Below, piece after piece: positions 23,343 through 25,432 of a DNA stretch of 64,000 nt. Positions within the stretch are counted from its first letter, which is position 1; each line of letters opens with the position of its first letter. The DNA is taken from the IMG/VR virus record IMGVR_UViG_3300042560_001229, positions 1 through 64,000 of that record; one strand, written 5' to 3'. The translations under genes were made by a program, and so were the position numbers. The notes under the pieces were generated by a model. The model ran no database searches. It saw only the letters and a program-made list of their open reading frames with translations, and was not told the DNA's origin. The DNA comes from a virus.

Positions 23343-23639
23343 ATGAAATCCACCACTAGTCCGAAGTCCAAGGCTGTCCGAGTTGGCAGCATTTTGTTTC
23401 ACCCTCCCCGTATGGAGCGAAGGTTCCTGTTGTTCACCCTTACTGGTGAGCCTGTGTATCAGTATGGCTACACCGGCTACACGTTGGAGAAGAACGGGAC
23501 ACGTCAGCAGTCCACCAGCTATGGGGACGTTGGTGATGACCTGCGGCAGAGGCGCGCAGCCAAGGCCACGGCCAAGCTCGGAGTCCCCGTCGAATGGCGG
23601 GAGACGAAGCCAGTCGAAATGATGGGGGTGTCGTTCTAA
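23343..23639 (+). CDS. hypothetical protein (MKST start)
   Basis: Follows promoter. Confidence 0.7.
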   Translation: MKSTTSPKSKAVRVGSILFHPPRMERRFLLFTLTGEPVYQYGYTGYTLEKNGTRQQSTSYGDVGDDLRQRRAAKATAKLGVPVEWRETKPVEMMGVSF

Positions 23640-24649
23640 TGATTGCCCGCCCCATGCTGGCCGAGACGCTGGAGAATGTCGCAGACATCCAGTTCCCGGT
23701 GCTCGCCACCGATAAGATTGATGGTCGCCGCAACCTCCTACTCCCACCCACCGAAGCCGGGAAGATGAGCCGCTGTGCCAGCCGTTCGCTGAAAGGGTTG
23801 AAGAATGACTTCACGCGGGAGTGGCTGGAGAGCTACCTCCCACCCGGCTTGGATGGGGAGTTGGTGGTGCTGACGCCCGATGGCCGCGTGGACGAGTTTC
23901 ACGTTATCTCGTCGGCGTTCACTAATGACGGTGAGCCTGACTTCCGCTTCATGGTGTTCGATGACTTCCGTGGCGGGTTGCAGGAGCCATATCTGGAGAG
24001 AATGAAACGGCTGGAGAAATCCCGGCTCCCATCTGGCAGGGTTATCAAGCTGCTTCCCACCCTCATTGAGAACGAGGAGGAACTGGACGCCTTTGAAGCC
24101 GCTGCCCTTGCCCGAGGGAATGAAGGGATTATGATTCGCACGCCCCACTCACCTTACAAGGAGGGACGCAGCACGGTGCGCGAAGGTTGGCTGCTCAAGA
24201 TCAAACGGTTCAAGGATGCGGAGGGCACTATCGTCGGAACCGTGGAGGGGATGCACAATGCGAATGAGGCCACGATCAACGAAGTAGGGCGCACGCAGCG
24301 TTCCACTTCCAAGGAGGGCAAGATTGGCAAGGGCCGAGTTGGTGCGCTGGTGGTCAAGCCGCTGGAGTTTGGCCCTCCTACCAATGACGACTGGCTGTAT
24401 GTGCAGCAGAACGCTCATCGGATGAAGGCGGCAGTGCAGAGCCACCCGTATCTGTTTATGATGGGCACCGGAGCCATCACCGTAGGCGGGAACAACGTCC
24501 CGTTGTCCGAAGCGCACACGATGCACAGACGGGTGGTGAAGTATAAGTTCCAGCCCATCGGCGTGAAGGTGAAGCCGCGTTTCCCGCAATGCCTCGGCTA
24601 CCGGGACGCTGATGATATGGATGGCGAACAGCAAGGGAGGCTGTTATGA
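23639..24649 (+). CDS. lig: ATP-dependent DNA ligase (minimal type)
   Basis: KIDG motif I, LDGEL, FD, EGIMIR, LLKIK, PRFP. Confidence 0.92.
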   Translation: MIARPMLAETLENVADIQFPVLATDKIDGRRNLLLPPTEAGKMSRCASRSLKGLKNDFTREWLESYLPPGLDGELVVLTPDGRVDEFHVISSAFTNDGEPDFRFMVFDDFRGGLQEPYLERMKRLEKSRLPSGRVIKLLPTLIENEEELDAFEAAALARGNEGIMIRTPHSPYKEGRSTVREGWLLKIKRFKDAEGTIVGTVEGMHNANEATINEVGRTQRSTSKEGKIGKGRVGALVVKPLEFGPPTNDDWLYVQQNAHRMKAAVQSHPYLFMMGTGAITVGGNNVPLSEAHTMHRRVVKYKFQPIGVKVKPRFPQCLGYRDADDMDGEQQGRLL

Positions 24650-24652
24650 CTT

Positions 24653-24748
24653 TGGTGGTCAGTAGTAGCAACATGGTGCCCACGCGAGATGCTGGGACAG
24701 GGCGGTGGAATCTTCGCCTCATAGAAACAAGCGCGCTACTGGCCACCA
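24653..24748 (+). ncRNA. structured RNA closed by a 13-bp stem ending CCACCA
   Basis: TGGTGGTCAGTAG 24653-65 pairs with CTACTGGCCACCA 24736-48; internal hairpins. Confidence 0.5.
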
Positions 24749-24754
24749 TCACTT

Positions 24755-24918
24755 TCAGTAGCAATGCTGAGGCTGACGGGCTGGCAGTATCCAGCCGAGG
24801 GCTGACGGCGAAAGCCTATGTAGCCTGCCATAATCCTATACGGCCCTCGCAAAGGTGCAGTGTAGGCAGTGCCCTCCGTGTGCGCTGTAAAAGGGTGCAA
24901 ACCCAACGCGGCCCTTTC
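24755..24918 (+). ncRNA. multi-hairpin structured RNA with GNRA tetraloops
   Basis: TCAGTA-GCAA-TGCTGA, GGCTGG/CCAGCC, GGC-GAAA-GCC, CCTATAC/GTGTAGG, GAGGGC/GCCCTC, GGGT-GCAA-ACCC. Confidence 0.5.
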
Positions 24919-25037
24919 GGGGTAGATGGATGCGGGTTCGATTCCCGCACGCTCCAGTTACGGGGCGGCTCGGTGCTACAAGACCTGACGGTGACATGCC
25001 GCAAGCATACCGGGTTCGACTCCCGGCTACTCCACCC
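24919..25037 (+). ncRNA. tRNA-like/tmRNA-like element with two T-arms and G3:U70 acceptor stems
   Basis: GCGGG-TTCGATT-CCCGC-ACGCTCC-A (24932-56) and CCGGG-TTCGACT-CCCGG-CTACTCC-A (25010-34). Confidence 0.7.
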
Positions 25038-25063
25038 CTTTTGAAACTGTTGCAAACTGACTT

Positions 25064-25432
25064 ATGCCCGTAACGATTGTTGGTGTAACAGCCGGGGCGG
25101 TCATCACTTTCCTCTCCACGGTGCAGAGGGAGGGTGAGCCTCGGCTGTATCGGGTGCGGTTGACCGTAATTGCGTTTGGTCAGACGGAACCTGACAAGGT
25201 GCTCGCACTGGCGGATGGCTTCATGTTTGGGGATGAGCAACTGATTCGAGTCGGCCCGAGACGCCTCCTACCGGAGCGTGTGAAGTCCAGAAACACTGAC
25301 TTTGCCTCGGTGCTTTCCAACTACATGCGGCTGGATGACATTGACGATGAATTGTCCTTGCCAGAATCCGCCCGCCAGTGGTATCGTCGCCAAGCAGTGA
25401 AACCCCGTAAAAGAAACCTCGAAATCCTATGA
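25064..25432 (+). CDS. hypothetical protein, C-terminal RKRNLEIL tag
   Basis: TGACTTATG start after palindrome. Confidence 0.7.
   Translation: MPVTIVGVTAGAVITFLSTVQREGEPRLYRVRLTVIAFGQTEPDKVLALADGFMFGDEQLIRVGPRRLLPERVKSRNTDFASVLSNYMRLDDIDDELSLPESARQWYRRQAVKPRKRNLEIL

What the first reader, a model, noticed from the sequence alone, without database searches (positions are those of the whole stretch)
24919..25037. Two interlocked tRNA-Ala/tmRNA-like ends with G3:U70 pairs
Seen: two perfect T-arms, each followed by a 7-nt acceptor strand and discriminator A. GGGGTAG (24919-25) pairs 7/7 with CTACTCC (25027-33), including G3:U70. Inside it, CGCTCC (24950-55) pairs with the downstream GGGGCG (24962-67), again with G3:U70, in a circularly permuted order. 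Alternatively 24962-25034 is a 73-nt degenerate tRNA with no proper anticodon arm. No encoded CCA. Established: G3:U70 plus A73 is the AlaRS identity used by tRNA-Ala and tmRNA, and permuted tmRNA genes exist. Inference: a tRNA mimic/decoy or a reduced tmRNA-like RNA, possibly with alternative folds.
Basis: partly seen in the sequence, partly recalled or inferred. Interest (0 to 1): 0.75.

Follow-up and report, generated by a model that had tools for sequence, protein, structure and literature searches.

The report
Two-headed alanine tRNA-like phage RNA
An uncultured lake phage carries a 119-base non-coding gene that looks like two copies of the alanine-accepting end of a tRNA (or of the ribosome-rescue RNA tmRNA) with their strands swapped; it cannot read codons, a close relative lacks it, and it probably mimics alanine tRNA/tmRNA, though nothing about its function has been tested.

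Summary
The motif GGTTCGANTCC occurs only twice in the complete 81-kb phage genome. Both copies lie here, 78 nt apart, each as a perfect T-arm followed by a 7-nt acceptor strand and A73.

The acceptor strands pair crosswise. The outer stem is GGGGTAG/CTACTCC (7/7) and the inner hairpin is CGCTCC/GGGGCG (6 bp). Both carry G3:U70.

ARAGORN and Rfam's curated thresholds find nothing. Rfam tmRNA does match 24919-25037 end to end (28.8 bits, E 2.6e-11), as it matches the known tag-less tmRNA of mycobacteriophage DS6A (43.2 bits).

A model I built from a 72-73-nt alanine-type tRNA-like family reads the locus as a 38-nt minihelix plus a 73-nt unit. Thermodynamics favours the nested fold by about 12 kcal/mol.

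The overlapping 132-aa ORF has a near-flat codon-position GC profile and no homologues. A close relative (86% ligase identity) lacks the element, so it is an accessory insertion.

Verdict: a real tRNA-like RNA gene and a new strand-swapped variant of "CDS-less tmRNA". A decoy function is inferred only. Unchecked earlier notes of this scan report similar two-headed RNAs in other phages.

The parts
24919..24925 (+). Outer 5' acceptor strand GGGGTAG. It pairs 7/7 with 25027-33 and gives G3:U70.
   Evidence: Sequence; MFE and centroid fold; Rfam tmRNA alignment.
24926..24931 (+). Single-stranded ATGGAT linker, a reduced D-loop-like segment that contains GG.
   Evidence: Aligned to the GGaU of the tmRNA D-loop analogue by cmscan. 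U24931 can pair with A24949.
24932..24948 (+). T-arm 1: GCGGG-TTCGATT-CCCGC.
   Evidence: Together with the next 8 nt it forms an exact 25-mer that is shared with TLD-only elements in two IMG/VR contigs and in Eremiobacterota and Novosphingobium MAGs.
24949..24956 (+). Inner 3' acceptor strand ACGCTCC plus discriminator A24956.
   Evidence: CGCTCC pairs with GGGGCG at 24962-67. T-stem 1 (6 bp with U:A) plus this 6-bp stem gives a 12-bp stack.
24957..24961 (+). GTTAC: the 5-nt spacer or loop between the inner 3' and 5' acceptor strands, and a possible processing site.
   Evidence: Same layout and spacer size as the permuted phage tmRNA-like genes L270/L302/L307 (TTCTT) and L337 (TCTT).
24962..24968 (+). 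Inner 5' acceptor strand GGGGCGG, which is also the start of the 73-nt unit 2.
   Evidence: Its 5' end, GGGGCGGCTCGGTG, is nearly identical to the 72-73-nt family (A2).
24969..25009 (+). Body of unit 2: a degenerate D-like hairpin and a 6-bp hairpin with a 5-nt loop. There is no 7-nt anticodon loop.
   Evidence: Folds; gap-free alignment to the family; R1 match of 30 bits in which the internal arms are skipped.
25010..25026 (+). T-arm 2: CCGGG-TTCGACT-CCCGG.
25027..25037 (+). Outer 3' acceptor strand CTACTCC, discriminator A25034, then CCC. ACC is encoded; the final A of CCA is not.
24653..24748 (+). Unit A: a 96-nt hairpin domain closed by GGTGGTCAGTAG/CTACTGGCCACC. It is conserved in the close relative L021. 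Its 3' end, GCTACTGGCCACC, repeats at the 3' end of the element as GCTACT--CCACC.
24749..24918 (+). Region B: a 170-nt unassigned structured stretch. It is present together with the tRNA-like element and absent together with it in L021.
   Evidence: 24650-24918 (unit A plus region B) folds with z -2.94 on the + strand and +0.48 on the - strand. Absent from L021. No Rfam match.

Best explanation
This is an accessory, horizontally acquired non-coding RNA gene of the 'CDS-less tmRNA / alanine tRNA-like' kind. It consists of two units, a 38-nt acceptor-plus-T-arm minihelix and a 73-nt tRNA-shaped unit without an anticodon, whose acceptor strands are swapped.

Shown here:
- The transcript's favoured fold is nested. 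An outer 7-bp acceptor stem (G3:U70, A73) stacks on T-arm 2.
- Inside it, a 6-bp acceptor-like hairpin (G3:U70, A in the discriminator position) stacks on T-arm 1.

Inferred:
- It is co-transcribed with the + strand genes around it.
- Host RNase P and 3' processing cut it out, and CCA is completed from the encoded ACC.
- Host AlaRS charges the outer end. It would also charge the inner end if the 5-nt loop is cut, as in permuted tmRNA genes.
- Having no anticodon and no tag frame, it acts as a non-decoding mimic of Ala-tRNA or tmRNA.
- The most likely role is a decoy that ties up factors of ribosome rescue or alanine charging (SmpB, EF-Tu, AlaRS), as reported for the DS6A-type molecule.
For: - Both T-arms and both stems are exact, and the T-arm motif occurs nowhere else in the genome.
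- Rfam tmRNA matches 24919-25037 end to end (28.8 bits, E 2.6e-11). The known DS6A TLD-only gene behaves the same way (43.2 bits, also below the threshold of 47).
- Model R1 was built from a covarying 72-73-nt alanine-type family. It hits 24962-25034 (30 bits, E 6e-6) and 24919-24956 (27.3 bits, E 3e-5). That is within the range of DS6A and 15 other phage elements, which score 24.8-41 bits.
- The nested fold is -49.1 kcal/mol against -36.7 for the tandem fold.
- The crosswise pairing is unique among 499 neighbouring T-arm pairs.
- The ORF over it has a near-flat codon-position GC profile (0.59/0.56/0.62) and no homologue among 5.8 billion proteins. In L021 no + strand ORF of 50 aa or more covers the homologous part.
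- The phage has no integrase, so the element is not an attachment site.
- Literature: G3:U70 plus A73 is the AlaRS identity for tRNA-Ala and tmRNA (PMC3968760). A TLD-only tmRNA exists in phage DS6A, and such a molecule inhibits tmRNA in E. coli (PMC4131195, PMC11915505).
Against: - There is no evidence of expression. No RNA run holds the stretch.
- No homologue with the same two-headed layout could be aligned, so the two crossed stems have no covariation test.
- A close relative (ligase 86%, GroES 84% identical) lacks the element, so it is dispensable and may be recent.
- The conserved tmRNA elbow motifs that flank the SmpB site (GGxUUCGAC after the acceptor stem, GGAC before the T-arm) are seen in the true tmRNAs but are absent here. 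SmpB binding is therefore doubtful.
- Folding of the 119 nt alone is only mildly better than shuffles (z -1.68).
- CCA is not encoded, and the phage has no CCA-adding enzyme or SmpB of its own.
Confidence: 0.5

Rival explanations
1. Two separate small RNAs rather than one. RNase P and 3' processing release a 38-nt alanine minihelix (24919-56) and a 73-nt tRNA-like RNA (24962-25034). Each then folds on itself with an imperfect acceptor stem, or the two anneal into a two-piece, two-ended complex.
For: - The family model R1 aligns the locus as two tandem full-length units.
- Both cis stems keep G1-G4 paired, including G3:U70 (5/7 and 6/7 pairs).
- Stand-alone minihelices of 41-59 nt and 70-80-nt TLD-only genes exist in other phages.
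- The 5-nt spacer equals that of permuted tmRNA genes, which are cut there.
- Cofolding of the two pieces gives -50.6 kcal/mol.
Against: - In the uncut transcript the tandem fold is about 12 kcal/mol worse.
- The perfect crosswise complementarity would be unexplained if each unit worked alone.
- No data exist on the RNA ends.
Confidence: 0.2
2. A non-functional recombination scar. Pieces of tRNA-like or TLD-only genes were captured or rearranged recently and are not under selection.
For: - The whole block 24749-25025 is missing from a close relative, and the junction lies in an imperfect direct repeat: GCTACTGGCCACC and GCTACT--CCACC.
- The D-like and anticodon-like arms of unit 2 are degenerate compared with the family.
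- No conservation data exist.
Against: - Both T-arms are perfect, and both crossed stems are perfect or near perfect.
- Decay of ordinary tandem genes would not create six complementary crosswise positions while spoiling the cis pairs (my estimate p about 0.002-0.02).
- The identical sequence occurs in four lake metagenome runs.
Confidence: 0.15
3. A cis-acting processing or stabilising element of the polycistronic mRNA. The tRNA-like fold recruits RNase P or RNase Z to separate the ligase message from the head-gene message, or it protects a 3' end. The released RNA itself has no role.
For: - It lies between the ligase gene and ORF122, upstream of the GroES and portal genes, all on the same strand, with no clear promoter or terminator nearby.
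- In the relative, unit A followed by a U-tract occupies the same junction.
Against: - The full alanine identity set (G1-G4, G3:U70, A73) at two ends is not needed for RNase P or RNase Z cutting.
- The relative manages without it.
Confidence: 0.08
4. Part of a 132-aa protein gene (24646-25044), with the RNA-like features arising by chance.
For: - The frame is open, its ATG overlaps the ligase stop codon, and GGGAGG lies upstream.
- About 10% of true coding windows in this genome also have a GC3-GC2 difference below 0.1.
Against: - GC by codon position is 0.59/0.56/0.62, against about 0.60/0.44/0.72 for genes.
- Only the protein itself was found among 5.8 billion proteins. There is no PHROG match.
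- In L021 no + strand ORF of 50 aa or more crosses the homologous part.
- The tmRNA-model E-value is 2.6e-11.
Confidence: 0.03
5. A phage attachment site (attP) that copies the 3' end of a host tRNA-Ala or tmRNA gene.
For: - Phages often integrate into tRNA or tmRNA genes and carry their 3' ends (general knowledge).
- The 25-mer of T-arm 1 plus its acceptor strand occurs in bacterial MAGs.
Against: - The complete genome, with direct terminal repeats, has no tyrosine or serine recombinase.
- Both 5' acceptor strands are present, which an attP does not need.
- The bacterial matches are TLD-like mini genes, not the hosts' tmRNA.
Confidence: 0.02

Closest known systems
CDS-less ('standard, no CDS', TLD-only) tmRNA of mycobacteriophage DS6A (JN698994 28478-28560; PMC4131195, PMC11915505)
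   Same: - Phage-encoded.
- Only the alanine-type acceptor stem (G3:U70, A73) and the T-arm of tmRNA, with no tag frame and no pseudoknots.
- Rfam tmRNA aligns it end to end but below the curated threshold (43.2 bits for DS6A, 28.8 here).
- CCA is not encoded.
   Different: - DS6A is one unit of about 80 nt with the UGGUGGUCGAC elbow motif and a single P2-like hairpin.
- The window element is 119 nt, has two T-arms and two acceptor-type stems with swapped strands, and lacks the UCGAC/GGAC motifs.
Circularly permuted (two-piece) tmRNA genes, including 'permuted, no CDS' forms (Rfam RF04321, RF01849-51; PMC11915505)
   Same: - The inner part has the permuted order: T-arm, 3' acceptor strand, discriminator, short spacer, 5' acceptor strand, D-loop analogue.
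- Phage examples with 4-7-nt spacers were seen here: L270/L302/L307, L332, L337.
   Different: - There is no coding piece with a tag.
- RF04321 scores only 14.5 and 21.3 bits, against a threshold of 47.
- The closing helix here is itself a complete alanine acceptor stem with its own T-arm, not a P2-type helix.
tRNA-Ala and the alanine minihelix (AlaRS identity G3:U70 + A73; PMC3968760)
   Same: - Both ends carry G1:C72, G2:C71, G3:U70, G4:C69 and A73, next to a canonical T-arm.
- Unit 2 is 73 nt long and fits tRNA numbering.
   Different: - No anticodon loop and no proper D arm.
- ARAGORN finds nothing, and the Rfam tRNA model matches only one T-arm (14.6 bits).
72-73-nt alanine-identity tRNA-like RNA family of Eremiobacterota MAGs
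   Same: - The exact 25-mer of T-arm 1 plus ACGCTCCA.
- The near-identical 5' end, GGGGCGGYTCGRTGG.
- The same length as unit 2.
   Different: - Family members are single units with cis-paired stems, a 4-bp D-like stem and a covarying inner arm.
- In the window these arms are degenerate, and the family's 3' end lies upstream of the family's 5' end.
'Two-headed, cross-paired alanine tRNA-like RNAs' of large phages, from earlier unchecked notes of this scan (e1-5743474, e1-5820008, e1-5347828, e1-5901200, e1-5511346)
   Same: By their descriptions: 111-134 nt, two tRNA top halves with swapped strands, both with alanine identity, and no anticodon.
   Different: - Those lie inside tRNA arrays of 180-220-kb and giant T4-like phages. 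This one lies alone between the ligase and head genes of an 81-kb phage with no tRNA genes.
- I could not obtain their sequences, so homology is untested.

Membership tests
tmRNA (SsrA, Rfam RF00023) | Acceptor stem with G3:U70 and discriminator A73 | tested here: met
   Present in both the outer stem (24919-25/25027-33, A25034) and the inner stem (24962-67/24950-55, A24956).
tmRNA (SsrA, Rfam RF00023) | tRNA-like T stem-loop (GGUUCGAnUCC) directly before the 3' acceptor strand | tested here: met
   Two perfect T-arms; they hold the only two GGTTCGANTCC in the genome.
tmRNA (SsrA, Rfam RF00023) | Reduced D-loop and elbow motifs (GGxUUCGAC after the acceptor stem, GGAC before the T-arm) that frame the SmpB site | tested here: not met
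   The true tmRNAs found by ARAGORN in the fetched loci show these motifs. The window has ATGGAT and GCATA instead; only a GG is kept.
tmRNA (SsrA, Rfam RF00023) | mRNA-like domain with resume codon and tag reading frame, plus pseudoknots | tested here: not met
   ARAGORN finds no tmRNA, standard or permuted. The model's 300 internal positions are replaced by 60 nt. I saw no tag-like frame on inspection.
tmRNA (SsrA, Rfam RF00023) | Score at or above Rfam's gathering threshold (47 bits) | tested here: not met
   28.8 bits, E 2.6e-11.
CDS-less / TLD-only tmRNA (DS6A type) | [quoted passage not shown] | tested here: met
   R1 scores are 30 and 27.3 bits, against 37.3 for DS6A.
CDS-less / TLD-only tmRNA (DS6A type) | A single unit whose own 5' and 3' ends pair, with one P2-like hairpin | tested here: not met
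   There are two units with swapped strands. The cis stems pair only 5/7 and 6/7.
CDS-less / TLD-only tmRNA (DS6A type) | Inhibits endogenous tmRNA when expressed (PMC4131195, PMC11915505) | not testable with these tools
   Needs a trans-translation reporter assay.
Permuted (two-piece) tmRNA gene | Gene order: T-arm, 3' acceptor strand, short spacer, 5' acceptor strand | tested here: met
   24932-24968 with the spacer GTTAC. The same order occurs in L270, L332 and L337.
Permuted (two-piece) tmRNA gene | Coding piece with a tag frame; RF04321 score at or above 47 bits | tested here: not met
   RF04321 scores 14.5 and 21.3 bits. ARAGORN reports no permuted tmRNA.
Canonical tRNA (Rfam RF00005, ARAGORN) | Cloverleaf with a D arm and a 7-nt anticodon loop | tested here: not met
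   ARAGORN finds 0 genes in the whole genome. RF00005 matches only T-arm 1 (14.6 bits, model positions 44-63).
   Both units match end to end (30 and 27.3 bits, E 6e-6 and 3e-5), but only through the acceptor stems, the 5' motif and the T-arms. The internal arms are skipped.
Two-headed cross-paired alanine tRNA-like phage RNAs (earlier notes of this scan) | Two T-arms; acceptor strands that pair only crosswise; alanine identity at both ends; 110-135 nt | tested here: met
   The layout matches the descriptions.

The most novel reading that the evidence does not exclude
The RNA is a true two-headed molecule. The 5-nt inner loop is cut as in permuted tmRNA genes, which gives a two-piece, strand-swapped complex with two free alanine-accepting CCA ends, each stacked on its own T-arm. 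It would belong to a recurrent, undescribed class of phage RNAs that act as bivalent Ala-tRNA/tmRNA mimics against host translation quality control or tRNA-directed defence.
Probability: 0.2. Interest if true: 0.8.

Novelty: new variant of a known kind. Interest (0 to 1): 0.55.

Why it matters
Tag-less tmRNA look-alikes are recorded in the tmRNA databases for only one phage (DS6A) and a handful of organelles, and one experiment suggests they block ribosome rescue.

This locus, together with the dozens of single-unit relatives I met in phage contigs along the way, suggests that phages use anticodon-less alanine acceptors much more widely and in more shapes than is recorded.

A strand-swapped form with two heads gives a concrete test object:
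- Can one RNA carry two alanines?
- Does it bind SmpB, EF-Tu or AlaRS?
- Does it disable trans-translation during infection?

If instead it is only a recent recombination product, it still shows how permuted tRNA-like genes can arise.

Tried and rejected
- **Standard RNA finders.** ARAGORN with default settings found nothing in the window or the genome. Relaxed thresholds gave hundreds of false calls and were useless. Rfam at curated thresholds found nothing in 64 kb.
- **Permuted tmRNA reading of the whole 390-nt gap.** No tag frame, no hit upstream of 24919, and RF04321 well under its threshold.
- **Close relatives for covariation.**
  - blastn against 50,697 phage records: no match.
  - Ligase, ORF122 and portal searches of IMG/VR: only relatives of 25-35% identity, or none.
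  - 80 metagenome loci with ligase relatives: 79 are distant and none holds an alanine-type T-arm plus acceptor end. Only L021 is close, and it lacks the element.
- **Exact and pattern searches of IMG/VR.** The exact 22-mer of T-arm 2 plus its acceptor strand has 0 hits. A pattern for the tandem or permuted layout found only ordinary tRNA arrays.
- **Sequencing runs.** No RNA holder is listed. Four lake DNA runs hold the identical sequence with no variants. One 31-nt record differs by 3 letters and is probably another organism's T-arm.
- **Two-headed model R2 on 50 phage records.** It found permuted or closed TLD-only elements and tandem tRNAs, but no second clear two-headed example.
- **Partner genes in the phage.** No integrase, SmpB, CCA-adding enzyme or RtcB. 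Pfam and PHROGs say nothing about the unknown neighbouring ORFs.
- **Host inference from acceptor sequences.** True tmRNAs with GGGGTAG/CTACTCCA are from gut and rumen Lachnospiraceae and their relatives, which are unlikely hosts for a lake phage with 58% GC.

Full report
**Setting.** The window is the first 64 kb of a complete 81,219-bp uncultured virus record with direct terminal repeats and 58% GC. DNA runs that hold the stretch are all lake-water metagenomes. The finding lies in a roughly 400-nt gap between an ATP-dependent DNA ligase gene (23594-24649) and ORF122 (25064-25432). GroES-like, portal and MuF-like head genes follow, all on the + strand.

**The observation.** Reading the sequence gives this order:
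- GGGGTAG (24919-25), ATGGAT
- T-arm 1, GCGGG-TTCGATT-CCCGC (24932-48)
- ACGCTCC plus A (24949-56), GTTAC, GGGGCGG (24962-68)
- a 41-nt body
- T-arm 2, CCGGG-TTCGACT-CCCGG (25010-26)
- CTACTCC plus A (25027-34), CCC

GGTTCGANTCC occurs exactly twice in the genome, both times here. My looser T-arm pattern gave 4 hits against 0.4 expected per genome, and the other two lack the canonical loop and any acceptor-like end. Both stems contain a G:U pair that would be an A:C mismatch on the other strand, so the structure belongs to the + strand.

**Coding or not.** A 132-aa ORF (24646-25044) spans the region.
- Its GC by codon position is 0.59/0.56/0.62, against about 0.60/0.44/0.72 for this phage's genes.
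- A search of 5.8 billion proteins returns only the protein itself, and it has no PHROG match.
- In the close relative L021, no + strand ORF of 50 aa or more covers the homologous part.

I treat the gap as non-coding.

**What the RNA tools say.**
- ARAGORN finds no tRNA or tmRNA in the genome.
- No Rfam family reaches its curated threshold.
- With relaxed thresholds, Rfam tmRNA (RF00023) aligns 24919-25037 from its first to its last position (28.8 bits, E 2.6e-11 for the genome). It uses the acceptor stem, a GGAU in the D-loop analogue, and T-arm 2.
- The tRNA model sees only T-arm 1 (14.6 bits).
- The one phage 'TLD-only' tmRNA in the literature is that of mycobacteriophage DS6A (PMC4131195, PMC11915505). 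I located it at JN698994 28478-28560. It behaves the same way, with 43.2 bits and an end-to-end match below the threshold of 47.

**Relatives of the parts.**
- The 25-mer of T-arm 1 plus ACGCTCCA is identical in two IMG/VR contigs: L009, a 41-nt minihelix, and L010/L222, a 75-nt tRNA-like gene followed by a terminator.
- It is also identical in MAGs of Eremiobacterota and a Novosphingobium.
- The Eremiobacterota copies form a multi-copy 72-73-nt cloverleaf-like family with invariant G3:U70 and A73 and no anticodon loop. All four helices covary: 98.6% of cells are paired, and the covariation score is 0.381 against 0.086 in shuffles.
- Those genomes also have a normal tmRNA.
- Unit 2 of the window (24962-25034, 73 nt) aligns to this family without gaps and shares its 5' end, GGGGCGGYTCGRTGG. 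Its inner arms are degenerate.
- The family model R1 hits unit 2 (30 bits, E 6e-6) and unit 1 (24919-56; 27.3 bits, E 3e-5). DS6A and 15 other phage elements score 24.8-41 bits.
- A pattern scan of IMG/VR showed that single-unit TLD-only genes and alanine minihelices of 41-87 nt are common in phage contigs.

**Nested or tandem.** Read as tandem units, the acceptor stems pair only 5/7 (unit 1) and 6/7 (unit 2). Read crosswise they pair 7/7 and 6/7.
- The nested fold is the MFE and dominates the ensemble: -49.1 kcal/mol, against -36.7 when the tandem pairs are enforced.
- With U24931:A24949, T-stem 1 has 6 bp. Together with the 6-bp inner stem it forms a 12-bp stack, the same length as a tRNA acceptor-plus-T minihelix.
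- Because both units begin GGGG and end CUCC, four pairs are shared by both readings. The chance that the other six positions fit crosswise this well is about 0.002-0.02 (my calculation).
- As an empirical control, among 499 neighbouring T-arm pairs in the 336 loci I held (mostly phage tRNA arrays), only this locus has crosswise partners and no cis partners.
- The inner order (T-arm, 3' strand, discriminator, 5-nt spacer, 5' strand, D-loop analogue) is that of permuted tmRNA genes. I saw it with 4-7-nt spacers in L270/L302/L307, in L332 (ARAGORN: permuted, tag AVPFELPMAA), and in closed TLD-only elements in L337 and L339.

**A close relative lacks it.** L021 is a 1.8-kb lake metagenome contig whose ligase is 86% and whose GroES is 84% identical to the window's.
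- It aligns with window 24616-24747 at 86% nucleotide identity, and then directly with 25026-25067.
- It therefore keeps 'unit A' (24653-24748, a 96-nt hairpin domain) and the U-rich spacer.
- It lacks region B (24749-24918) and nearly all of the tRNA-like element. R1 finds nothing in it.
- The junction falls in an imperfect direct repeat: GCTACTGGCCACC at 24735-47 and GCTACT--CCACC at 25026-37.
- This means either a deletion between repeats in L021 or a microhomology-mediated gain in the window phage.
- Either way the element is accessory, like phage tRNA genes.
- The upstream 269 nt fold better than shuffles on the + strand only (z -2.94 against +0.48). The gap may therefore hold more than one RNA.

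**Mechanism.** The following is shown: a non-coding, strand-specific, tRNA-like structure with two full alanine identity sets, no anticodon and no tag frame. The rest is inferred.
- It would be excised from the polycistronic transcript by host RNase P and 3' processing. CCA would be completed from the encoded ACC, and AlaRS would charge it.
- It would then act as a non-decoding mimic of Ala-tRNA or of the tRNA-like domain of tmRNA.
- The only experimental precedent is that a DS6A-type molecule inhibits tmRNA in E. coli, perhaps by titrating SmpB (PMC4131195, PMC11915505).
- Against a simple SmpB decoy: the conserved UCGAC/GGAC elbow motifs seen in true tmRNAs are missing.
- The phage encodes no SmpB, CCA-adding enzyme, RtcB or integrase. 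This rules out an attP reading and offers no partner gene.

**Limits.**
- No RNA data exist.
- The four DNA runs laid on the stretch show the identical sequence.
- The crossed stems therefore rest on one sequence plus controls, not on covariation.

**Earlier notes of this scan.** Unchecked notes describe similar 'two-headed, cross-paired alanine tRNA-like RNAs' in tRNA arrays of several large phages, and many single TLD-only genes. I confirmed the second point independently. I could not obtain sequences to test the first.

**Verdict.** The element is best filed as a new, strand-swapped two-unit variant of the known CDS-less tmRNA / alanine tRNA-like kind. Its function is untested.

Noticed in passing
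window 24653-24748 (and 24749-24918): Unit A is a 96-nt domain closed by a 12-13-bp stem. It is 86% conserved in the relative L021, where a U-tract follows it directly. The 269 nt at 24650-24918 fold with z -2.94 on the + strand only. This is possibly a separate small RNA or a 3'-end structure of the ligase message. It matches no Rfam family.
   Followed up: partly
L128 4800-5460 (-); also L099, L105, L107, L112, L118, L123, L132, L133, L142, L167, L172, L180, L199, L200: Eremiobacterota MAGs carry several copies of a 72-73-nt cloverleaf-like RNA with invariant G3:U70 and A73, no anticodon loop, and covariation in all helices. In L128 there are three tandem units of about 225 nt. Each pairs this RNA with a downstream tail that contains the reverse complement of its inner-hairpin arm (changing copy by copy), followed by a terminator. 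This suggests a built-in antisense partner. The genomes also have a normal tmRNA.
   Followed up: partly
IMG/VR loci L228, L233, L243, L245, L264, L267, L276, L277, L280, L285, L286, L288, L298, L310, L321, L331 and others: Dozens of phage contigs encode single-unit TLD-only tmRNA-like genes or alanine minihelices (41-87 nt) that ARAGORN does not call. The tmRNA database lists only 9 'standard, no CDS' sequences.
   Followed up: partly
L337 1501-1573 (-); L339 1501-1588 (+): These are closed, circularly permuted TLD-only elements with the order T-arm, 3' acceptor strand, 4-nt loop, 5' acceptor strand, D-loop analogue, all closed by an outer helix. In L339 the loop is a GUAA tetraloop and there is no discriminator base, so no free acceptor end seems intended.
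   Followed up: partly
L270 10597-10810 (also L302, L307, L240): A phage contig with a large tRNA array carries a permuted tmRNA-like gene with only a 5-nt spacer (TTCTT). It scores 48 bits on RF01851, below the threshold of 70, and ARAGORN misses it.
   Followed up: partly
window 25067-25327: The first 87 codons of ORF122 are an in-frame block that is absent from L021, whose ORF there is only about 35 codons. The block looks coding by GC position (0.63/0.44/0.66).
   Followed up: no
window 25094-25118: GGGGCGG-10 nt-CCTCTCC-A is a microhelix-like hairpin with G3:U70 and A73 inside ORF122. R1 gives 9 bits (E 0.7), so it is probably chance.
   Followed up: no
L219/L220 (phage DS6A, JN698994 about 28570): Twelve nt after the DS6A TLD-only gene lies GGGGTTG, which pairs 7/7 (with G:U pairs) with the TLD's 3' acceptor strand. 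This is a faint echo of the permuted layout and may be chance.
   Followed up: no
L222 985-1010 and 1490-1510: The phage contig that carries the 75-nt alanine tRNA-like gene has a second GATCAATGGGGCG start about 510 nt upstream, which may mark a second related RNA gene.
   Followed up: no
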